A DNA stretch of 29,761 bases, taken from IMG/VR virus record IMGVR_UViG_3300045988_081399, one strand, 5' to 3'. A model generated the notes under the pieces. The model saw nothing but the letters and a program-made list of their open reading frames with translations. It made no database searches and had not been told where the DNA came from. Source of the stretch: a virus. The position numbers and the translations under genes were made by a program. Of the stretch, positions 1-29,761 are shown piece by piece (the stretch's first letter is position 1; each line of letters opens with the position of its first letter).

Positions 1-148
1 CAAGGACAGAGTCGCTGCCCAGAAGAAGGCATGGTACGAGGCGAACAAGGACAAGCTCGCCGCCTGGCAGAAGGCATACCGCGAGGCGAACAAGGACAAG
101 ATTGCCGCCTGGCAGAAGGCATACCGCGAGGCGAACAAGGACAAGATT
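1..148. repeat. 45-bp tandem repeat array, 3' block (tail of R4/R5 overlap, R5 to nt 58, R6 59-103, R7 104-148)
   Basis: R6 and R7 are identical over all 45 nt (gccgcctggcagaaggcataccgcgaggcgaacaaggacaagatt). R5 is a hybrid of the upstream and downstream repeat types. A degenerate eighth unit follows at 149-193. Confidence 0.9.
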
Positions 149-328
149 GCCGCCCAGCAGAAAAGCATTGCGCTGGCGCGCAAAGCCCAGGGTATGACCC
201 AGAGTGGGCTTGCGGCTATAGTCAGAGTGACCCAGGCGACTGTATCGCTATGGGAGACCGGCGCGGTCAAAGCAAACTGGGACAAGCTCTGCGCAGCGCT
301 GCCGGAGCTGGAGACGCACAGACCGTAA
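1..328 (+). CDS. 3' part of the junction-spanning regulator gene (continues from 29401..29761): last 15-aa tandem repeats plus a C-terminal XRE-type helix-turn-helix
   Basis: Frame 2 (codons from nt 2) is open from the window edge to TAA 326-328. It reads KDRVAAQKKAWYEANKDKL, AAWQKAYREANKDKI x2, then ...GMTQSGLAAIVRVTQATVSLWETG, a typical HTH_3/XRE motif. The phase matches the ORF that runs off the 3' end. Tracked ORF 31..384 is the wrong frame of the same repeats. Confidence 0.8.
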   Translation, partial: KDRVAAQKKAWYEANKDKLAAWQKAYREANKDKIAAWQKAYREANKDKIAAQQKSIALARKAQGMTQSGLAAIVRVTQATVSLWETGAVKANWDKLCAALPELETHRP

Positions 329-414
329 AAAGCCGCCGCCGGAGGGGCAACTCCGACGACGGCAGTAGAAAAAACTACAACTAAAGTATATCTGAAAAAG
401 AGGGTGTATGCAAG

Positions 415-3800: not shown

Positions 3801-4799
3801 ATGGCGTGGATTGAATTACATCAGAATCTTCCGGCGCACAGAAAAGTGAAAAAGTTGAAGCGGCTGCTGAAGATCAAGACGCCGCAGGCAGTTGGGCATC
3901 TGGCCATGCTGTGGCTCTGGGCAGTGGACAATGCGCCGGATGGTGATCTATCCGCGCTGGATCCAGAGGACATTGCAGAAGCGTGTGAGTGGCCGAAGGA
4001 CGCGGAACAATTCGTGCAGGCGCTGACCGAGGCCGGTTTTATCGACCCGGACGCAAAACTGCACGATTGGAGCGATTACGCCGGGATGCTCCTGGACCGC
4101 CGGGAGAACCAACGAGAGCAGAACCGCAAGCGGCAACAGCGTTACCGTAACAAACGGAAAGCGGACAGTAACGCGACCGAGTCCAATGCGCCAACGCAAG
4201 ATTCTAGCCCCGTAACGCATGACGATAACGTTAGCGTAACGCGTTACGAAAGCGTTAGTAACGCCCCTGTAACGACCCTACCTAACCTAACCATACCTAA
4301 CCATACCAAACCTAACCTTAACCAGGGGAGGTATGAGGATACTTGTAAGGCGTTACCAGGCACCGACAGCGTTACGGCGCCAGCACCCTGTCCGCCGCAG
4401 AAACGGTCAGAAGCAGTGGCCTATTACTGCCAGCATATCAACCCCACACCGTCTGGGTACTCACTGCAGGCGCTGGAACGCTTTGAGGGCATCTTGGGGG
4501 CAGAGGTGACCATCCATGCCATCCAGATTGCTCAGGACGAGCGCAAGCAGAGCTGGAATTACATCAAGGCCATCCTGGAGCGCTATGAGCGTGAGGGAGT
4601 CCGGTCTCTGGCGGACATCCAGGCATCAGAGCAGCAGCGCCAGGCGGCAAGACAGCAGCAGGGCTGGAAGAAGCCTGCAAAAGCGCCCGTGCCGGAAGCG
4701 GACAGACAGCCGGAAGACCAGGCGGAGTTTGCAGCTAGAATCGCGGAACAGGACGCCTGGATGCGAGGCTTCTTGGAGAGCCAACGGGAGGAGGGATGA
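3801..4799 (+). CDS. Replication initiator / replisome organizer with C-terminal DnaD-like domain
   Basis: The C-terminal block YYCQHINPTPSGYSLQALERFEGILGAEVTIHAIQIAQDERKQSWNYIKAILERYEREGVRSLADI looks like a DnaD/DnaB_2 domain. The N-terminal WIELHQN...LAMLWLWAVDNAPDG is typical of phage initiator N-domains. A low-complexity linker is encoded by the iteron cluster. Confidence 0.7.
   Translation: MAWIELHQNLPAHRKVKKLKRLLKIKTPQAVGHLAMLWLWAVDNAPDGDLSALDPEDIAEACEWPKDAEQFVQALTEAGFIDPDAKLHDWSDYAGMLLDRRENQREQNRKRQQRYRNKRKADSNATESNAPTQDSSPVTHDDNVSVTRYESVSNAPVTTLPNLTIPNHTKPNLNQGRYEDTCKALPGTDSVTAPAPCPPQKRSEAVAYYCQHINPTPSGYSLQALERFEGILGAEVTIHAIQIAQDERKQSWNYIKAILERYEREGVRSLADIQASEQQRQAARQQQGWKKPAKAPVPEADRQPEDQAEFAARIAEQDAWMRGFLESQREEG
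4140..4376. repeat. Iteron cluster inside the initiator gene (candidate origin of replication)
   Basis: GTAACG at 4168, 4212, 4236, 4258 and 4269 (plus CGTAAC 4146). Its complement CGTTAC at 4140, 4242, 4350 and 4369. CCTAACC at 4281, 4286, 4296 and 4311. Confidence 0.6.
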
Positions 4800-7140: not shown

Positions 7141-7677
7141 ATGACGGGAGCGGAAATCAAAGCATTTCGGCGTCGCGAGTTATTGACACAAGAGATGCTT
7201 GCGCAGGCAATCGGCACATTGCAAGCGCATATCAGCGGCTGGGAGAAAGAGCTACGCCCTATCCCAGCAGAGCAGGAGGCCAAATTGCGGCAGCTCGTGG
7301 GCGCATCCCCGCAAGAGAGATGGGAGATGCTGGCCGAAATCCGAAAGAATAAGGCAGAAGCTGAGCACAGGAGAAAGCTCGCAAGACGGGCAAGGCCGAA
7401 GAAACCGCCAAAGCCGCCCGAAGCTGCTGCCGCTCAGAACGCCGCAGCCAAAGGCGTTATCCCTTGCAAGGCCTGTCCCCACTGGCAGCACATGGACGCA
7501 GTGAAAAGCAAGACCATGTACTGTGCCTGCATCCAGGAGACCGGCCATGCCCGTACCTGCGGCGTAGAGCGTACATACCAGCGGTACAGGACGCTCAATC
7601 CGCTGTCTCTGGACGCTGCTAGGGCGGCGGAGTTGGGGTTGAGCTATGGGCAGTACAAGGCGAGAGAGGTGAGCTGA
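7141..7677 (+). CDS. HTH (XRE-like) DNA-binding protein with a basic linker and Cys/His-rich C-terminal domain
   Basis: GAGGAGGA RBS. N-terminal LTQEMLAQAIGTLQAHISGWEKELRPIP is an XRE-type HTH. C-terminal CKACPHW...CAC...H..TCG is a putative metal site. Confidence 0.65.
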   Translation: MTGAEIKAFRRRELLTQEMLAQAIGTLQAHISGWEKELRPIPAEQEAKLRQLVGASPQERWEMLAEIRKNKAEAEHRRKLARRARPKKPPKPPEAAAAQNAAAKGVIPCKACPHWQHMDAVKSKTMYCACIQETGHARTCGVERTYQRYRTLNPLSLDAARAAELGLSYGQYKAREVS

Positions 7678-9256: not shown

Positions 9257-9327
9257 ACTCCTGTAGCTCAGCAGCTAGAGTGTGCGGCCATATCGCAAGG
9301 TCGTGGGTGCAAATCCCACCAGGAGCA
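9257..9327 (+). tRNA. tRNA-like element with candidate CAU anticodon and several non-canonical positions (possibly a pseudogene or decoy)
   Basis: Acceptor ACTCCTG/CAGGAGC (A1 x C72 mismatch). D arm GCTC-AGCAGCTA-GAGT. Variable loop AGGTC. T arm GTGGG-TGCAAAT-CCCAC. The anticodon arm TGCGGCCATATCGCA is 15 nt rather than 17. Confidence 0.45.
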
Positions 9328-9971: not shown

Positions 9972-11136
9972 CGGCTCTGTTCGGTCTGGTAAAACCGTTG
10001 CCATGTCTGTGGGCTTCCTGCTCTGGGCTATGTCCACCTTTGACGGTTGCAAGTTCGCCCTATGCGGTAAGACCATCGAGGCGCTGCGGCGGAACGTGGT
10101 ATCCCTCATCCCCGGCCTGATGGACGGGATCATGCGGGTGCAGGAGCGGCGCAGCGACAAGACCATGACGGTGTGGGGCTTCGGCCACGTCAACACCTTC
10201 TATCTGTTTGGTGGTCGAGACGAGAGCAGTTACACCCTGATCCAAGGCATGACGCTGGCGGGCGTGCTTTTCGATGAGGTAGCGTTGATGCCACGCTCCT
10301 TCGTGGAGCAGGCGTTGGCTCGTTGCAGCATCAGCGGGTCACGGTACTGGTTCAACTGCAATCCGGAAGGGGCTTCCCATTGGTTTTACCGAGAATGGAT
10401 TTTGAAAGCAGAGGCACACAACGTGCTGCACCTGCATTTCACCATGGCGGACAACCTGGCCTTAGACCCGGCGGTGCGGGCACGGTACGAGACGATGTAT
10501 ACCGGCGTGTTTTATGACCGTTACATCCGTGGACTGTGGGTGGCGGCGGAAGGCCGCATCTATGACTGCTTCGACCCGGCCAAGCACATGACCGGCACAC
10601 TGCCGGAGTTGGCTGGTGACTGCTATGTGAGCTGCGATTATGGCACGCAAAATGCCACAGTGTTCCTGCTATGGCAGCGGGAGCGGGGCACAGAGCGGTG
10701 GATATGCCGTCGAGAGTATTACTATTCCGGCAGGGAGAAAAAACGGCAGAAAACGGACAAAGAGTTTTGCGCTGACCTGGGCACCTGGCTGGGGGATGAA
10801 CGTCCTCGTGCTGTGGTGGTTGACCCTTCAGCGGCTTCGTTTATTGCGGAGCTGCGCCAAGCAGGCTACCCGATGCAGCAGGCGGACAATGAGGTGTTGG
10901 ACGGCATCCGCAACGTATCTACCCGGTTACAGGCCGGGACACTGCTGTTTTCCGCCTCCTGCGTCCATACGGCGGATGAATTTCAGGCGTATGTTTGGGA
11001 CGAGAAGGCAGCGGAGCACGGGGAAGATAAGCCAGTCAAAGTCAATGACCACTGCATGGATGCGGTGCGATATTTTGTGACCACCATACTGGGGCGGCAG
11101 GTCGTGAGAGTCGGCAAGCGCCCAGCAAGATTGTGA
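9880..11136 (+). CDS. terL: Terminase large subunit (PBSX/Terminase_3-like)
   Basis: Walker A DGSVRSGKT, Walker B-like VLFDEV, and a C-terminal nuclease block (VVDPSAASFIAELRQAGY ... NDHCMDAVRY). Confidence 0.9.
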   Translation: MVYKRFSRKQLLTLLWWKQAELNQYDGLICDGSVRSGKTVAMSVGFLLWAMSTFDGCKFALCGKTIEALRRNVVSLIPGLMDGIMRVQERRSDKTMTVWGFGHVNTFYLFGGRDESSYTLIQGMTLAGVLFDEVALMPRSFVEQALARCSISGSRYWFNCNPEGASHWFYREWILKAEAHNVLHLHFTMADNLALDPAVRARYETMYTGVFYDRYIRGLWVAAEGRIYDCFDPAKHMTGTLPELAGDCYVSCDYGTQNATVFLLWQRERGTERWICRREYYYSGREKKRQKTDKEFCADLGTWLGDERPRAVVVDPSAASFIAELRQAGYPMQQADNEVLDGIRNVSTRLQAGTLLFSASCVHTADEFQAYVWDEKAAEHGEDKPVKVNDHCMDAVRYFVTTILGRQVVRVGKRPARL

Positions 11137-11145
11137 GGTGAGCGT

Positions 11146-12597
11146 GTGATTATCTACTTAGACAGGGCGGAGGCGCCTGACCTGGAGCACATCCCAGGAC
11201 AGGTGCTCCAACACCTGATTTCGGCGTCCGAGCAGGCAAATGGACGCTATGACAAGCTCCATCGGTATTATCTGGGGCGACATGACAACACCAAAAAGCC
11301 GCCAGATGAGGGCGAGAGCGTTGTGACCATCAACTACGCCAAGTACATCACCGACATTATCCTGGGTTACTACTTGGGCGAGCCGGTCAAGTACGACACC
11401 AATCCCCAAAAGGACAAGAGTGTAGCGGCAGCCGGAACGGATGAGGCAGCGGGTGTGCTGTCCGCGGACAATGAGCCGGTGGATATTTCGGCGCTGCAAG
11501 ATGCCTACGATGTCCAGCAGATCGCGGCCATTGATGCGGACATTGGAAAATATATGGGCGTCATGGGCGACTGTATGGAGCTATGTTATGCGTCTGACGA
11601 TGAGGTGCCCATGCCCCGATCGGCGTACATTGACCCACGCAACGGCGTATTGGTCTGCGACACCAGCGTAGAGCACAAAAAGCTGTTCGGCGTGGTCTGG
11701 GACAAGCGCCAGACGGTGGCCGGTCAGACGTATTACGCAGTGTCCATCTATACGGACACTGGCGTGCAGGAGCTGCGGTGCGATGATTTGGCCACGGCGG
11801 CATTTACCCCAGTGGCAGACCGGCGGGAGCACTATTTCGGCGCTGTCCCGCTGATCGCATACACCAACAACCGGGAGCGGCAGGGCGACTTTGAGCAGAT
11901 CATCAGTCTGATTGACGCTTATGACGAGCTGATGAGCAACCGCCTGACCGACAAAAAGAAATTTGTGGATGCGCTGCTGGTGTTCTTCGGGATGACCCTC
12001 CGAGATGGGGATGATGAGAAACTGGCGCAGGAGAAGTTTTTGGATGGCGCTCCGCTGGACGCACGAGCCGAGTACATCCAAAAGACCTTTGACGAGTCCA
12101 GCGTGCAGGTGCTGGCAGACGCACTGGTGCGAGAAATGCACAAGATGACTATGACGGTGGACATGAGCGATGAACAGTTCGCCGGGAACAGCTCCGGCCA
12201 GGCGTTGAAGCTGAAACTCCTGACCATGAATCTGCTGGCCAAGAACAAGATGCGCCGAATGGAAAAAGGGCTGAAGGAGCGCTTCTCGCTTTATAATCAC
12301 TGGCTGGTCACCCGCGGTGATATGGCACCGGTCGGTGTCAACGATATTGATGTTGTGTTTACCCTGTCCATGCCCATCAACGAGAGTGAGATTGTCCAGA
12401 TGGTCACCAGTTTGCAGGGCATTGTGGATGACCGAACCCTGCTCAGCCAGTTGTGGTTTGTCCGCGATCCGGCGGAAGCGGCTGAAAACATTAGGCGGCA
12501 GAAGCAGGCAAACGCGGCCATCTATGGCGTCCCGTCCCAGGCGGATGAGACAGAAGCGGAGGAAGACACCAAGAAAGCATTGAAACAGGATGAGTGA
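11146..12597 (+). CDS. Portal protein, SPP1 gp6-like
   Basis: GTG start follows GAGGTGA. N-terminal RYDKLHRYYLGRHDN ... INYAKYITDIILGYYLGEPVKY pattern. 483 aa, directly after terL. Confidence 0.88.
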   Translation: MIIYLDRAEAPDLEHIPGQVLQHLISASEQANGRYDKLHRYYLGRHDNTKKPPDEGESVVTINYAKYITDIILGYYLGEPVKYDTNPQKDKSVAAAGTDEAAGVLSADNEPVDISALQDAYDVQQIAAIDADIGKYMGVMGDCMELCYASDDEVPMPRSAYIDPRNGVLVCDTSVEHKKLFGVVWDKRQTVAGQTYYAVSIYTDTGVQELRCDDLATAAFTPVADRREHYFGAVPLIAYTNNRERQGDFEQIISLIDAYDELMSNRLTDKKKFVDALLVFFGMTLRDGDDEKLAQEKFLDGAPLDARAEYIQKTFDESSVQVLADALVREMHKMTMTVDMSDEQFAGNSSGQALKLKLLTMNLLAKNKMRRMEKGLKERFSLYNHWLVTRGDMAPVGVNDIDVVFTLSMPINESEIVQMVTSLQGIVDDRTLLSQLWFVRDPAEAAENIRRQKQANAAIYGVPSQADETEAEEDTKKALKQDE

Positions 12598-27058: not shown

Positions 27059-27099
27059 GCCTGGGGCGGTTCAAACTGCCCCAGGCCTTTTGTTTTTTT
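27059..27099 (+). terminator. Rho-independent terminator ending the late/lysis operon
   Basis: GCCTGGGGC (27059-27067), 10-nt loop, GCCCCAGGC (27078-27086), then CTTTTGTTTTTTT. Confidence 0.85.
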
Positions 27100-27179
27100 C
27101 AGAAGAGGAAGAATTGTAAAACATAAGCAAAGTCCGCATTTTGGAACTAAATGTCTATTATAACCGTTCGAGGTTTGAT

Positions 27180-27203
27180 TTGTCAATAGACCCTGGTTGA
27201 CAA
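27180..27203. promoter_or_regulatory. Inverted repeat TTGTCAA-N10-TTGACAA overlapping the -35 box (candidate operator)
   Basis: TTGTCAA at 27180-27186 and its exact reverse complement TTGACAA at 27197-27203. Confidence 0.5.
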
Positions 27204-27225
27204 CCGCGGCTCCGACATGTATAAT
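27197..27225 (+). promoter_or_regulatory. Consensus sigma-A/sigma-70 promoter (probable early promoter)
   Basis: TTGACA 27197-27202, exactly 17-nt spacer, TATAAT 27220-27225. Located between the late-operon terminator and the first early ORF. Confidence 0.7.
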
Positions 27226-27316
27226 CAAAAATAAGAGTAAACTTTGTTAAAGTTTTGATGATATTTTAGCAAAGTTTCGGGAGTAGGACATAAAGTTTAA
27301 TGAAAGGGGGGTATAT

Positions 27317-27946
27317 ATGGACATGTTGACACGCGAATATATCAACGAGTTGGCTGAACTGATTATCGAAATATACGACATCCGAGTTCCAATAAAGAAT
27401 ATCGATGAAATCGTAGAAAAATTAGGCGGATGCGTTGATAATGAAAAAGAAAGTCTATATGATGGGACGATTGAAAAAGTAGACCAAGATAGTTTTTGCA
27501 TTAAAGTATCCCCCTACCAAAGCGAGCGAAGGAAAAATTTTACGGTAGCGCATGAGCTGGGACATCTGTTTTTGCACATGGGTTACAAGACAAATCCACA
27601 GATTTGGGAAAGTCATGAGTCTGGGAAAAAATATCAGAGGTCTGGGACAACGGAACAGGAATATCAGGCAAATGAGTTTGCGGCATCTCTGTTGATGCCT
27701 AAAAAAAAATTCATAGCAGAGTTAATGAGGATTGCAGCTGACGTCCTGGCTGAAATCAAAGCGCTGGACCCGGACACGCGGATCACCCTGCATTACATCC
27801 GGAGCATCATCAACCAGGGCAAGGTGCCTGTCCGCAAGGCTGGCACCAAGAAGCTGGTCGATTTGGACAAGGTGCTGGAGTACCTGGCTCGCGGAGACGA
27901 AGATGAAAAGACACCAACCGGAGAAATCCGGAGAGTGGAGCTGTGA
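27317..27946 (+). CDS. Chimeric ORF: AT-rich ImmA/IrrE-type (M78) metallopeptidase N-terminal part fused in frame to a GC-rich excisionase/HTH_17-like C-terminal part
   Basis: FTVAHELGHLFLH (HExxH) and EQEYQANEFAASLLMP are ImmA/IrrE signatures. After an A9 run (27701-27709) the composition switches to GC-rich at about 27722. The rest (ITLHYIRSIINQGKVPVRKAGTKKLVDLDKVLEYL) resembles Xis/HTH_17 proteins. An in-frame ATG at 27725 could start a separate 73-aa product. Confidence 0.7.
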   Translation: MDMLTREYINELAELIIEIYDIRVPIKNIDEIVEKLGGCVDNEKESLYDGTIEKVDQDSFCIKVSPYQSERRKNFTVAHELGHLFLHMGYKTNPQIWESHESGKKYQRSGTTEQEYQANEFAASLLMPKKKFIAELMRIAADVLAEIKALDPDTRITLHYIRSIINQGKVPVRKAGTKKLVDLDKVLEYLARGDEDEKTPTGEIRRVEL

Positions 27947-28578: not shown

Positions 28579-28884
28579 TTGGACTACACGAAAACAGTTT
28601 TAAGGCTCCGTGACGCGGGGCAGGAAGAAGAGGCGCGCAAAGTTCTGGCCGAAGGTGTTATGTATTATTCGCGCAAGGCGGAAGGCCTGTTTAATGGGAC
28701 GCCGTATTGCGACATCCCTATTTTGGTTATGGCGGCAGAGCGGATTTGCGGGTTCTTACGCAACACGGATGGCTTTATCAATGGGCAGGCAAATGTGTTT
28801 GATGAAAGCCTTGGCGAGTATGTATCCAAATCCATCATCGCAATGACAATCGCCGGAGGGGAGGAAGAACGATGCTGGGAGTAA
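28579..28884 (+). CDS. Hypothetical protein (101 aa)
   Basis: AAGGAGGG RBS precedes TTG 28579. No motif recognised. Confidence 0.5.
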   Translation: MDYTKTVLRLRDAGQEEEARKVLAEGVMYYSRKAEGLFNGTPYCDIPILVMAAERICGFLRNTDGFINGQANVFDESLGEYVSKSIIAMTIAGGEEERCWE

Positions 28885-29081
28885 AACACACTTGCCAGTT
28901 TACGGTGGGGTTTGTGTCCAGTCTGATGGCCTTGGGAGCCGGGGTATCCGGCCTGACTATGGCGATGGAGGGCAACCACTGGCCTGGCGTTGCGATGATG
29001 GTGGCGACGGCGCTGCTGCTGAGCGTAGCAGAGGACGCCTTCGGGCGGATGCGTCAGCGAGGTGACTATCGTGGCGCGTAA
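28872..29081 (+). CDS. Small two-TM membrane protein (69 aa) with a charged C-terminus
   Basis: GGAGGGGAGGAAG lies upstream of ATG 28872. Hydrophobic stretches FTVGFVSSLMALGAGVSGLTMAM and WPGVAMMVATALLLSVA, then RMRQRGDYRGA. Confidence 0.55.
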   Translation: MLGVKHTCQFTVGFVSSLMALGAGVSGLTMAMEGNHWPGVAMMVATALLLSVAEDAFGRMRQRGDYRGA

Positions 29082-29388
29082 GCCCTGCGCCCACTGCCAG
29101 CGCCTATGGAGCACCAAAACCCTGGTGACGGTCGGCGCGGCGGAGCTGTGTCCGGTCTGCTACAAGCAGCGGAGATGGACACGGAAATTGTGGCCGTGCA
29201 GAGACTGCACGTTTGAGACGGACAGGACGCTGGTCTGCCACGACAAGTGCCCGCGGTACGCAATGCACCGTGCCCTCATTTGGGCGGGTAAGCCCAGCAA
29301 GGGTGACCGGGCGGCAGCAGAGGTGACGCTGGAGGGCAAATTGCGGAGTATCCGGCACAGAGGAACCGGTAAGATTATTCAAATATAG
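29071..29388 (+). CDS. Cys-rich zinc-ribbon-like hypothetical protein (~105 aa)
   Basis: GAGGTGA 29058-29064 lies 6 nt before GTG 29071; the tracked start GTG 29062 is an in-frame alternative. Contains CAHC, CPVC, CRDC and CHDKC pairs. Confidence 0.5.
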   Translation: MARKPCAHCQRLWSTKTLVTVGAAELCPVCYKQRRWTRKLWPCRDCTFETDRTLVCHDKCPRYAMHRALIWAGKPSKGDRAAAEVTLEGKLRSIRHRGTGKIIQI

Positions 29389-29400
29389 GAGGCGTCTAAC

Positions 29401-29761
29401 ATGATCGAGTGCAACCACAACTGCCTGGAGTGCCCATATCCTGACGTGCCGGAGGAGTGCCTGGAGGCGGCTCTGACATGGGATGAGTACAAAGAGCTCG
29501 ACGTCATCGACAAGGACATTATCAACCCAAAGACGGCAAAACAAAAAGCAGTCGCCGCCTGGCAGAAGGCGTGGTACGAGGCGAACAAGGACAGAGTCGC
29601 TGCCCGGCAGAAGGCATGGTACGAGGCGAACAAGGACAGAGTCGCTGCCCGGCAGAAGGCGTGGTACGAGGCGAACAAGGACAGAGTCGCTGCCCAGAAG
29701 AAGGCATGGTACGAGGCGAACAAGGACAGAGTCGCTGCCCAGAAGAAGGCATGGTACGAGG
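29401..29761 (+). CDS. 5' part of the junction-spanning regulator gene: zinc-ribbon-like N-terminus followed by 15-aa tandem repeats (continues at nt 41 of the window)
   Basis: AGGAGG 29387-29392 lies 8 nt before ATG 29401. The ORF has no stop before the window end and so is absent from the ORF track. It reads MIECNHNCLECPYPDVPEEC...KQKAV, then AAWQKAWYEANKDRV-type repeats. Confidence 0.8.
   Translation, partial: MIECNHNCLECPYPDVPEECLEAALTWDEYKELDVIDKDIINPKTAKQKAVAAWQKAWYEANKDRVAARQKAWYEANKDRVAARQKAWYEANKDRVAAQKKAWYEANKDRVAAQKKAWYE
29554..29761. repeat. 45-bp tandem repeat array, 5' block (R1 29554-29598, R2 29599-29643, R3 29644-29688, R4 29689-29733, R5 from 29734)
   Basis: The period of 45 nt was confirmed by position (ggcagaaggc at 29561 and 29606). 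R2 and R3 differ at one nt. The 41-mer caaggacagagtcgctgcccagaagaaggcatggtacgagg occurs at 29676-29716, 29721-29761 and 1-41. Confidence 0.9.

What the first reader, a model, noticed from the sequence alone, without database searches (positions are those of the whole stretch)
29401..29761. Unrecognised regulator architecture: Cys4 head, seven 15-aa tandem repeats, XRE HTH tail
Collapsing the overlap gives a 215-aa protein with three parts. (i) A 51-aa N-terminus with CNHNCLEC...EEC. (ii) Seven uninterrupted 15-aa units (AAWQKAWYEANKDRV / AAWQKAYREANKDKI). (iii) A degenerate eighth unit running into an XRE-type HTH (GMTQSGLAAIVRVTQATVSLWETG, window nt 190-260). I do not recognise this domain combination. 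The strict 15-residue period with W/Y/A/V at fixed positions suggests a long helical rod, possibly a pentadecad-type coiled coil. Such a rod would set the distance between a metal-binding head and a DNA-binding tail, giving a regulator whose geometry depends on repeat number. The genome has no CI/Cro pair, so this is one of the few candidates for a master regulator, or a partner/substrate of the ImmA-like peptidase at 27317.
Basis: partly seen in the sequence, partly recalled or inferred. Interest (0 to 1): 0.75.

Follow-up and report, generated by a model that had tools for sequence, protein, structure and literature searches.

The report
Variable-length repeat arm on phage regulator
A gut-bacterial phage gene split across the ends of a circular contig encodes an uncharacterised DNA-binding protein with a four-cysteine head, a helical arm of 15-residue repeats (1 to 9 copies among relatives) and a standard helix-turn-helix tail; it appears to be an accessory early protein, not the phage's master switch.

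Summary
The window ends overlap by exactly 41 nt inside a 45-nt tandem array. Joining them gives a 215-aa ORF with three parts: a Cys4 head (C4, C8, C11, C20), seven 15-aa units, and an XRE HTH that passes Pfam's cut-off. Seven units is a minimum, because the contig break lies in the array.

It is a real, undescribed family. There are 731 close homologues. Their heads and tails are about 95% identical and they differ almost only in unit number, from 1 to 9. About 25 divergent clusters keep the same three-part plan with degenerate repeats.

AlphaFold gives a helical arm (pLDDT >90) and an XRE-fold tail. The arm is basic (+13), the head is acidic (-7), and the arm is not amphipathic. I therefore favour a nucleic-acid-contacting arm over a classical coiled coil. 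The same repeat occurs in hundreds of phage HNH/EndoVII nucleases behind a Cys/His head.

Relatives sit in prophages that have integrase and CI/Cro, always in the early operon next to recombination genes. None of the related loci fetched shares the window's ImmA-like gene. The 'master regulator / ImmA substrate' idea is therefore not supported.

Verdict: a new variant of a known kind, of moderate interest.

The parts
29401..29761 (+). 5' part of the gene: start codon, head (aa 1-51) and units 1-4 plus the first 28 nt of unit 5
   Evidence: An RBS-like aggagg lies at 29389-29394, seen directly in the sequence.
1..41 (+). Duplicate of 29721-29761, the circular-contig overlap. It must be collapsed to read the gene.
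   Evidence: the only exact end overlap.
42..328 (+). 3' part of the gene: rest of unit 5, units 6-7, the degenerate eighth unit, the XRE HTH and the stop codon (326-328)
29410..29460 (+). Cys4 motif C-x3-C-x2-C-P-Y-P-D-x-P-x-E-C (aa 4-20); the head has net charge -7
   Evidence: C4, C8, C11, P14, P17 and C20 are invariant across divergent relatives. Head pN/pS is 0.15. Only 31 representative clusters in 1.84 billion proteins match the head.
29554..29761 (+). 45-nt / 15-aa tandem array, first part (units 1-4 and the start of unit 5)
42..148 (+). 45-nt / 15-aa tandem array, second part (rest of unit 5, units 6-7)
158..316 (+). XRE (Cro/C1-type) helix-turn-helix domain, aa 160-212, ending in the family motif ANWDKLCAALPEL
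   Evidence: Pfam HTH_3 scores above its cut-off. Foldseek matches ClgR, HipB, C.AhdI, P22 C2 and SinR over 52-68 columns at rmsd 1-2 A. The profile hits PDB HTH proteins.
332..363 (.). 13-bp GC-rich hairpin just after the stop codon. The T-run is on the minus strand only.
28872..29081 (+). 69-aa small protein, apparently with two hydrophobic (membrane-type) helices. It is a conserved upstream neighbour; small hydrophobic proteins of 75-77 aa also sit directly upstream of the gene in divergent relatives L011, L012 and L023.
29062..29388 (+). 108-aa Cys-rich protein (..CHDKCPRYA..), the conserved immediate upstream neighbour. It appears fused to the head in the read-through variant P0129.
27197..27225 (+). 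Perfect sigma-70-type promoter (TTGACA-17-TATAAT). It is the only strong promoter upstream of the operon that contains the gene.

Best explanation
The gene encodes an accessory early-operon DNA-binding protein of an undescribed family found in temperate and ex-temperate siphophages of Oscillospiraceae.

Shown:
- It has an acidic N-terminal head with four invariant cysteines (C-x3-C-x2-C-x8-C).
- It has a basic helical arm built from 15-residue units, AA[QRW][QKR]KA[YW][YR]EANKD[KR][VI].
- It has a canonical C-terminal XRE helix-turn-helix.
- The arm length differs between otherwise near-identical alleles, from 1 to 9 units.
- The same unit forms the arm of many phage HNH/EndoVII nucleases.

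Inferred:
- The HTH anchors the protein on a specific operator.
- The basic, Asn/Lys/Tyr/Trp-rich arm lies along or near nucleic acid and extends the contact. Each unit is one short helix N-capped by the invariant Asn, as the arm would in the nuclease relatives.
- The Cys4 head binds a metal (Zn or an Fe-S cluster) and serves as a protein-contact or sensing module at the far end.
- Unit number changes by unequal recombination or slippage between nearly identical 45-nt units, and it tunes reach or footprint rather than switching the protein on or off.
- The protein is not the lysis-lysogeny switch. It more likely controls or organises DNA around the adjacent recombination/replication genes, or another early target.
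For: The gene and the family:
- The joined ORF and array are real.
- There are 731 homologues. The top 120 differ almost only by multiples of 15 aa. Loci with 1, 7, 9 and at least 8 units exist.
- L017, with 1 unit, is 94% identical to the window over 4.7 kb of flank.
- The identical 6-unit allele P0007 was assembled in four independent samples and 14 contigs, so counts are reproducible.

Constraint acts on the protein:
- Divergent relatives keep head, 15-spaced motifs and HTH.
- P0135 has no DNA-level repeat at all and P0127 has 79% repeat identity.
- Head pN/pS is 0.15.

Structure:
- AlphaFold model 2 has mean pLDDT 92. The arm is helical with breaks at N62, N77, N92, N122 and N137. Asn-Pro at the same position is common in distant relatives.
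- The tail has an XRE fold.

Charge and partners:
- The arm carries +13 and the head -7. Arms carry +1.7 to +3 per unit in all relatives and show no helical amphipathicity in 5 of 7 tested.
- The repeat matches PHROG 7091, 'HNH endonuclease', phage HNH/EndoVII proteins, and 286 proteins whose only Pfam domains are HNH or Endonuclease_7.

Context: the gene lies in the early operon after small ORFs and before RecT/YqaJ/SSB/DnaD-like genes.
Against: - No DNA target, oligomeric state or metal has been determined.
- The arm-DNA contact rests on charge, residue types and analogy with the nuclease relatives, not on a structure.
- AlphaFold monomer models of long helices are confident whatever the true assembly.
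- Model 1 gave one unbroken helix.
- The Ala stripe (positions 2, 6, 10) plus an aromatic stripe could still mediate helix-helix packing.
- One nuclease relative, Vibrio gp37, is significantly amphipathic at 96 degrees.
- Tail pN/pS is fairly high at 0.59, on few sites.
- Copy number in short-read assemblies can be collapsed.
Confidence: 0.45

Rival explanations
1. Coiled-coil ruler. The repeats form a homo-oligomeric, right-handed pentadecad coiled coil. It dimerises the HTH domains and sets the distance between the DNA-bound tails and the metal-binding heads, or, if antiparallel, between two HTH ends that bridge two DNA sites. Repeat number would then set the geometry.
For: There is a strict 15-residue period and a predicted long helix. 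XRE proteins usually bind as dimers (own knowledge). Exposed Trp, Tyr and Val and an Ala stripe would prefer burial (angle table). Length polymorphism of 1-9 units would give a graded ruler. Own knowledge: in Type I HsdS subunits, 2 versus 3 TAEL repeats in a coiled coil change the DNA spacer that is recognised.
Against: The hydrophobic moment at 92-104 degrees is not above shuffled controls for the window or for 4 of 6 relatives. The net charge of +13 on the arm (about +2 per unit, conserved) disfavours parallel self-association. The residues conserved across distant families are Asn, Lys and Tyr rather than a hydrophobic pattern, and the Ala stripe is not conserved outside the close family. 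Asn-Pro at unit boundaries and the helix breaks in model 2 argue for segmented helices.
Confidence: 0.25
2. Master lysis-lysogeny regulator of this phage, or the substrate or partner of the ImmA-like metalloprotease at 27317-27946.
For: The window has no integrase, CI or Cro and only two HTH proteins, this one and 7141-7677. The M78/ImmA/CapP-like protease has no adjacent HTH partner.
Against: The same gene (85-98% DNA identity) sits in prophages that have their own integrase and repressor/Cro pair, and it lies well downstream of that switch. None of the related loci shares the window's protease gene. L009 has an unrelated M78 gene next to a conventional HTH_3 repressor. The HTH is C-terminal, unlike ImmR, CapH and DdrO (own knowledge). 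The gene is the sixth in an operon about 2.2 kb from the only strong promoter.
Confidence: 0.07
3. The array acts mainly as DNA, for example as iterons of an origin, a recombination hot spot or protein-binding sites. The protein repeat would be a by-product.
For: The units are nearly identical at the DNA level, which indicates concerted evolution. The gene sits beside RecT and replication genes. Origins inside phage replication genes are known, e.g. lambda O (own knowledge).
Against: Divergent relatives keep the 15-residue protein motif with no detectable DNA repeat. The same protein unit occurs in unrelated phages of Vibrio, Staphylococcus and Acinetobacter. A better origin candidate exists at 4211-4324 inside the DnaD-like gene.
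Confidence: 0.05
4. The array or its copy number is an assembly artefact, and the ORF is not intact in the real genome.
For: The contig breaks inside the array. Units 6 and 7 are identical, and units 4 and 5 share 39 nt. Other contigs also end in the array (L010, L016). Short-read assemblers collapse such repeats (own knowledge).
Against: Intact in-frame arrays occur in hundreds of independent assemblies, including 0.76-Mb and 2.18-Mb contigs. An identical 6-unit allele was recovered from four samples. The flanks are collinear with the window junction. Only the exact count in this window is uncertain.
Confidence: 0.03
5. MBF1/EDF1-like factor. The HTH and the preceding basic helix would bind ribosomal or other RNA rather than an operator.
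For: The best PDB sequence matches of the family profile are EDF1/MBF1 on ribosomes (E=2.6e-7), and they cover the helical stretch plus the HTH. Archaeal MBF1 also combines a zinc ribbon with a C-terminal HTH (PMC3062615).
Against: The aMBF1 model TIGR00270 scores 10.6 bits against a cut-off of 110. The match is carried by the generic HTH; HipB, P22 C2 and 434 repressor score almost as well. MBF1 is absent from Bacteria (PMC3062615).
Confidence: 0.05

Closest known systems
XRE (Cro/C1-type, Pfam HTH_3) transcription regulators, e.g. P22 C2, 434 repressor, HipB, ClgR, C.AhdI
   Same: The C-terminal 55 residues pass the Pfam cut-off and superpose on these structures at rmsd 1-2 A.
   Different: The HTH is at the C-terminus and is preceded by about 160 residues (Cys4 head plus repeat arm) that no library recognises. 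There is no S24 peptidase domain and no known oligomerisation domain.
Phage HNH / endonuclease VII proteins with a Cys/His head and the same 15-aa repeat (Vibrio phage 1.240.O gp37 AUR97537, Staphylococcus phage f2b1 QIA28523, Acinetobacter phage AbC62 gp84 YP_009055505; PHROG 7091)
   Same: They share the same 15-residue unit ([KR]-x-[YW]-[YR]-E-x-N-[KP]-[DE]-K-[IVL]), also basic at about +2 per unit. They share the same order: Cys-rich head, repeats, then a DNA-acting C-terminal domain.
   Different: Their head is a CxxC/CxxH zinc-ribbon-like motif placed directly before the repeats, not C-x3-C-x2-C-x8-C followed by a 30-aa helical linker. Their C-terminal domain is a His-Me finger nuclease, not an HTH. 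Their repeats are diverged rather than a homogenised array of variable number.
MqsA antitoxin (N-terminal zinc-binding domain + C-terminal XRE HTH; PMC2791442)
   Same: A Cys4 metal-binding N-terminus and a C-terminal HTH_3 on one chain. It is the best NCBIfam hit, through the HTH only.
   Different: It scores far below the cut-offs (25.9 against 61.8 bits; Pfam E=0.15). It has a different Cys spacing, no repeat arm and no MqsR-like toxin gene nearby.
MBF1/EDF1 (archaeal MBF1: zinc ribbon + HTH; PMC3062615)
   Same: Metal-binding head, basic helical linker and C-terminal Cro-like HTH. These are the top PDB sequence hits.
   Different: It is not a member (TIGR00270 10.6 against 110 bits). MBF1 has no tandem repeats and is not found in Bacteria or phages.
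I-TevI DNA-binding domain (zinc finger + minor-groove helix + HTH) and NUMOD-type modules of homing endonucleases (own knowledge)
   Same: An extended, modular DNA-binding chain in which a zinc module and helical elements precede an HTH. In I-TevI the zinc finger acts as a distance determinant.
   Different: No sequence similarity was tested or found, there is no nuclease domain here, and the resemblance is recalled from memory only.
Repeat-number rulers such as the TAEL repeats of Type I HsdS (EcoR124I/II) and pentadecad stalks of trimeric autotransporters (own knowledge; for pentadecad literature)
   Same: In-frame tandem repeats in a helical segment whose copy number changes a molecular distance.
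   Different: Those are demonstrably coiled coils with hydrophobic seams. This arm lacks one and is strongly basic.

Membership tests
XRE / Cro-C1 HTH (Pfam PF01381 HTH_3) | Profile score above Pfam's gathering threshold | tested here: met
   27.3 bits against 23, E=3.8e-6, aa 163-194. Homologues carry precomputed PF01381.
XRE / Cro-C1 HTH (Pfam PF01381 HTH_3) | Five-helix lambda-repressor-like fold | tested here: met
   The tail has pLDDT 94-97 in model 2. Foldseek TM(target) is 0.6-0.75 and rmsd 1-2 A to C.AhdI, P22 C2, HipB and SinR.
XRE / Cro-C1 HTH (Pfam PF01381 HTH_3) | Sequence-specific operator binding | not testable with these tools
   Needs EMSA, DAP-seq or ChIP.
MqsA-family antitoxin (TIGR03830 / PF15731) | Whole-protein score above the curated cut-off, with an N-terminal CxxC...CxxC zinc domain | tested here: not met
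   TIGR03830 scores 25.9 against 61.8 bits, on the HTH part only. PF15731 gives E=0.15. The Cys spacing is C-x3-C-x2-C-x8-C.
MqsA-family antitoxin (TIGR03830 / PF15731) | Adjacent MqsR-like toxin gene | tested here: not met
   The neighbours are small ORFs with no hit in PHROGs, Pfam, NCBIfam or PADLOC.
Archaeal/eukaryotic MBF1 | TIGR00270 score above the cut-off | tested here: not met
   10.6 bits against 110.
ImmR/ImmA-type (also CapH/CapP, DdrO/IrrE) repressor-protease pair | Repressor with N-terminal HTH encoded next to, and co-occurring with, the M78 protease | tested here: not met
   The HTH is C-terminal. The gene lies 1.4 kb and five ORFs from the protease. The protease segment is absent from all related loci.
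ImmR/ImmA-type (also CapH/CapP, DdrO/IrrE) repressor-protease pair | Cleavage by the protease | not testable with these tools
   Needs a biochemical assay.
CI/LexA-type phage repressor | HTH plus S24 peptidase or an oligomerisation domain, divergently transcribed from cro beside the integrase | tested here: not met
   There is no S24 hit. The gene lies within the rightward early operon. Relatives have a separate CI-like gene.
Phage HNH/EndoVII nucleases with the 15-aa repeat arm (PHROG 7091) | Tandem 15-aa [YW][YR]ExN[KP][DE]K units | tested here: met
   phrog_7091 E=1.5e-8 over aa 84-153. tblastn hits in 41 phage records. In-register alignment A3.
Phage HNH/EndoVII nucleases with the 15-aa repeat arm (PHROG 7091) | His-Me finger catalytic domain | tested here: not met
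   No HNH or Endonuclease_7 Pfam hit at E<=10. The C-terminus is an HTH.
Pentadecad (15/4) coiled coil | 15-residue sequence period in a helix | tested here: met
Pentadecad (15/4) coiled coil | Continuous hydrophobic seam (amphipathic at about 96 degrees per residue) | tested here: not met
   The moment is 0.13-0.14 against a shuffled 0.16-0.22; the fraction of shuffles reaching the observed value is 0.69-0.77.
Pentadecad (15/4) coiled coil | Homo-oligomeric bundle with knobs-into-holes packing | not testable with these tools
   Only monomer prediction was available.
Zinc ribbon | Two CxxC-type knuckles on beta-hairpins | tested here: not met
   The spacing is C-x3-C-x2-C-x8-C. The model shows coil and short helices, no strands, at pLDDT 64-84. 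The metal itself was not testable.

The most novel reading that the evidence does not exclude
The 15-residue unit is a new modular nucleic-acid-reading repeat shared by this HTH family and by phage HNH/EndoVII nucleases. Each Asn-capped helix would contact a few base pairs through the face that carries the variable positions 3, 4, 7 and 8 (Q/R/W, Q/K/R, W/Y, Y/R) together with the invariant Asn11. Reshuffling and changing the number of units would then retarget or resize the DNA footprint. That would be a TALE-like logic in a phage regulator, possibly coupled to a redox- or metal-sensing Fe-S/Zn head.
Probability: 0.08. Interest if true: 0.85.

Novelty: new variant of a known kind. Interest (0 to 1): 0.5.

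Why it matters
In-frame repeat-number polymorphism is well known in surface proteins but unusual in a cytoplasmic DNA-binding regulator. Here, near-identical alleles with 1 to 9 units form a natural series for asking how arm length affects DNA binding.

The repeat itself has no Pfam model and matched no solved structure by sequence, yet it is present in hundreds of phage nucleases. Working out what it does would annotate a widespread module.

The Cys4 head is rare: 31 clusters among 1.84 billion representatives. It could be a metal or redox sensor in phages of strict anaerobes.

For genome annotation, the case also shows that a gene can be hidden by a contig break placed inside its own repeat array.

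Tried and rejected
- Foldseek of model 1 against PDB gave no hits. Model 2 against PDB and BFVD matched only the HTH domain, so the head and arm have no structural analogue.
- phmmer of head plus arm, and of a nuclease head plus arm, against PDB sequences found nothing significant.
- A profile of 45-aa three-unit segments (A3) searched with the search for homologous proteins returned only 45-81-aa fragments with no domain information. It was uninformative.
- The genome-contig scan returned one 2.2-kb Oscillospiraceae MAG contig that ends in the array. That is the only host clue.
- Megablast of 20.8 kb of the window against 50,697 GenBank phages found no match. tblastn of the protein found no close homologue in cultured phages; the best was 34% identity over the repeats.
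- Divergent family members sit on contigs of 1.4-2.8 kb, so their wider context could not be read.
- Literature searches for pentadecad coiled coils, 15-residue repeats and zinc-ribbon HNH enzymes found no description of this repeat or architecture.
- The '27180-27203 inverted repeat' proposed as an operator consists of the two -35 hexamers of back-to-back promoters.

Full report
**1. The observation**

The window is a circular phage contig whose two ends fall inside one gene.
- The last 41 nt equal the first 41 nt, and no other exact end overlap exists.
- Collapsing the overlap joins 29401-29761 to 42-328. The result is a 648-nt ORF of 215 aa.
- TRF reports the 45-nt array on both sides of the break. 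At 29550-29761 there are 4.7 copies at 95% matches; at 1-162 there are 3.6 copies.
- The protein reads as follows: a 51-aa head with C4, C8, C11 and C20; seven 15-aa units; a degenerate eighth unit; and an XRE HTH. Pfam HTH_3 scores 27.3 bits against a cut-off of 23.
- The junction is genuine. Both window ends align collinearly to an independent 2.18-Mb contig and to several other loci.
- The caveat is the count. The break lies between two units that share their first 39 nt, so seven is the minimum.

**2. It is a family, and the repeat number varies**
- The joined protein finds 731 homologues. The best 120 are 140, 155, 170, 185 or 200 aa long, apart from four with extended C-termini.
- Parsing them gives 2, 3, 4, 5 and 6 units in 2, 37, 60, 13 and 5 proteins. 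The window's 7 units are the most in that set.
- IMG/VR loci extend the range. L017 has 1 unit, L014 has 7, L015 has 9, and L016 has at least 8 before its contig ends.
- Heads and tails are about 95% identical throughout.
- L017, with one unit, is 94% identical to the window over 4.7 kb of flank. Copy number therefore changes faster than point substitutions accumulate.
- The exact 6-unit allele P0007 was assembled in four different samples and 14 contigs. This argues against the counts being assembly noise.
- Within units, positions 1, 2, 5, 6 and 9-13 are essentially invariant. Variation sits at positions 3, 4, 7, 8, 14 and 15.
- At the DNA level the units are nearly identical, with a constant GAGGCGAACAAGGAC core. 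That is the substrate needed for unequal recombination or slippage.

**3. The constraint acts on the protein, not the DNA**
- An exhaustive search of 1.84 billion representatives with the 51-aa head alone returns only 31 clusters.
- Most full-length members have the same plan: a head CN-x-x-C-x-x-CPYPD-x-P-x-EC, degenerate [YW][YR]xxN[RKP][DE] motifs, and an HTH ending ANWxxLxxxLPEL.
- The motifs keep 15-residue spacing.
- C4, C8, C11, P14, P17 and C20 are invariant.
- One divergent gene has no detectable DNA repeat. Another has 79% unit identity, against 95% in the window.
- Head pN/pS is 0.15.
- One relative, P0147, has the head followed by two HTH domains and no repeats.

**4. Structure**
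- With a shallow alignment, AlphaFold gave one helix from residue 43 to 170, and a poorly defined head and tail.
- With the divergent alignment, mean pLDDT rose to 92. The arm stays helical but breaks at N62, N77, N92, N122 and N137, which is the invariant Asn11 of the units. The tail becomes a confident XRE fold.
- Asn-Pro at that position is frequent in distant relatives. This fits Asn as an N-cap, so each unit would be one short helix.
- Foldseek matches only the tail, to ClgR, HipB, C.AhdI, P22 C2, SinR and EDF1. It finds nothing for the head or arm in PDB or BFVD.
- Sequence searches of PDB likewise find nothing for the head or arm.

**5. Coiled coil or basic arm?**
- A 15-residue period in a helix forces a 3.75-residue harmonic. 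The useful question is whether a hydrophobic seam exists at that harmonic.
- It does not. The moment at 96 degrees is 0.13-0.14, no higher than shuffled controls.
- The arm carries +13 net charge and the head -7.
- About +2 per unit is conserved in divergent family members and in 120 nuclease relatives.
- The residues conserved across all these proteins are Tyr/Trp7, Tyr/Arg8, Asn11, Lys12 and Asp/Glu13. The Ala stripe of the close family is not conserved.
- I therefore rate a nucleic-acid-contacting basic arm above a classical coiled-coil rod. The latter is not excluded.

**6. The same repeat elsewhere**
- PHROG 7091, 'HNH endonuclease', matches the repeats at E=1.5e-8.
- tblastn finds the unit in 41 phage records annotated as HNH endonuclease, endonuclease VII or 'coil containing protein'.
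- Three examples were read directly. Each has a Cys/His head, then 15-aa units, then a nuclease-type C-terminal domain; Pfam confirms HNH only for the Staphylococcus phage protein.
- The head plus arm of one of them finds 286 proteins. Their only Pfam domains are HNH or Endonuclease_7.
- Pfam and NCBIfam have no model for the repeat.
- The window's family is thus the HTH-bearing counterpart of a widespread, unnamed module.

**7. Context and the regulator hypothesis**
- The window is a complete siphovirus-type genome on one strand. It encodes small and large terminase, portal, head and tail proteins, holin and endolysin. After these come the early operon, RecT, SSB, a DnaD-like initiator, a methyltransferase, RusA and MazG.
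- It has no integrase, CI or Cro.
- Close relatives of the gene lie in prophages that do have integrase and a repressor/Cro pair. There the gene follows the same 69-aa and 105-aa ORFs and precedes YqaJ/RecT or AAA-ATPase/RecT; in L005-L008 a block of small ORFs is duplicated between the gene and the Sipho_Gp157/SSB genes.
- The window's ImmA-like gene has no counterpart in any related locus.
- The proposed operator at 27180-27203 is the pair of -35 boxes of two perfect back-to-back promoters.
- The gene is therefore an accessory early gene. It is not the switch, and it is not a dedicated ImmA partner.

**8. Comparison with known families**
- It is a member of the XRE HTH superfamily through its tail only.
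- It fails the tests for MqsA, aMBF1, ImmR-type and CI-type repressors, HNH nucleases, zinc ribbons and amphipathic pentadecad coiled coils (see the membership table).
- No cultured phage in GenBank carries a close homologue.
- No paper describing the repeat or the architecture was found.

**9. Verdict**

This is a real, conserved and uncharacterised architecture, with a striking natural series of arm lengths. I class it as a new variant of a known kind. The function remains inferred. Interest is 0.5.

Noticed in passing
window 27157-27225 (with terminator 27059-27086): Two perfect 12/12 sigma-70-type promoters lie back to back. The plus-strand one drives the early operon. The minus-strand one points only at the bidirectional terminator after the endolysin gene. 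In temperate relatives a repressor and an integrase lie on the minus strand upstream of the early operon, so this phage looks like a derivative that has lost its lysogeny module. Four AAAGTTT/AAACTTT sites follow at about 27235-27300.
   Followed up: partly
window 4211-4324: A cluster of tandem repeats (24 nt x2, 11 nt x2, ACCTA x8.6) lies inside the DnaD-like replication initiator gene 3801-4799. It is probably the origin iterons.
   Followed up: no
window 7141-7677: A second HTH protein of 178 aa has an N-terminal XRE HTH and a Cys/His-rich C-terminal half. It is conserved upstream of the terminase genes in relatives (L004 14973-15497, L009 13057-13584) and may be a late-gene regulator.
   Followed up: partly
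window 9257-9327: Rfam tRNA model hit at 45.3 bits with a 5-nt rather than 7-nt anticodon loop. ARAGORN calls no tRNA. It may be a degenerate or unusual tRNA-like element upstream of the small terminase gene.
   Followed up: partly
window 27317-27946: The ImmA/IrrE-like M78 protease is best matched in PADLOC by CapP, the CBASS-associated protease (E=4.8e-25). It has no adjacent HTH partner in this genome.
   Followed up: partly
window 28872-29388 and 415-606; L011, L012, L023: Small neighbours travel with the gene: a 69-77-aa protein that looks like a two-helix membrane protein, and Cys-rich proteins of 63-108 aa (CHxxCPRYA motif). P0129 looks like a read-through fusion of the Cys-rich neighbour with the head, and P0128 also carries an N-terminal extension.
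   Followed up: partly
L005-L008, about 10687-11979: In the P0007 prophage the 101/69/105-aa ORF block is present again after the gene, next to a 156-aa SMC_N/AAA_23 fragment. This is a local duplication or rearrangement around the gene, seen in four samples.
   Followed up: no
window 332-363: A 13-bp GC-rich hairpin lies directly after the gene's stop codon. Its T-run is on the minus strand only, so it would terminate antisense rather than sense transcription.
   Followed up: no
P0121, P0142, P0147 (proteins): Odd alleles exist. P0121 (111 aa) has no repeats, and the start of its tail region is read in another frame. P0142 (76 aa) joins the head almost directly to the HTH end. P0147 has the head plus two HTH domains.
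   Followed up: no
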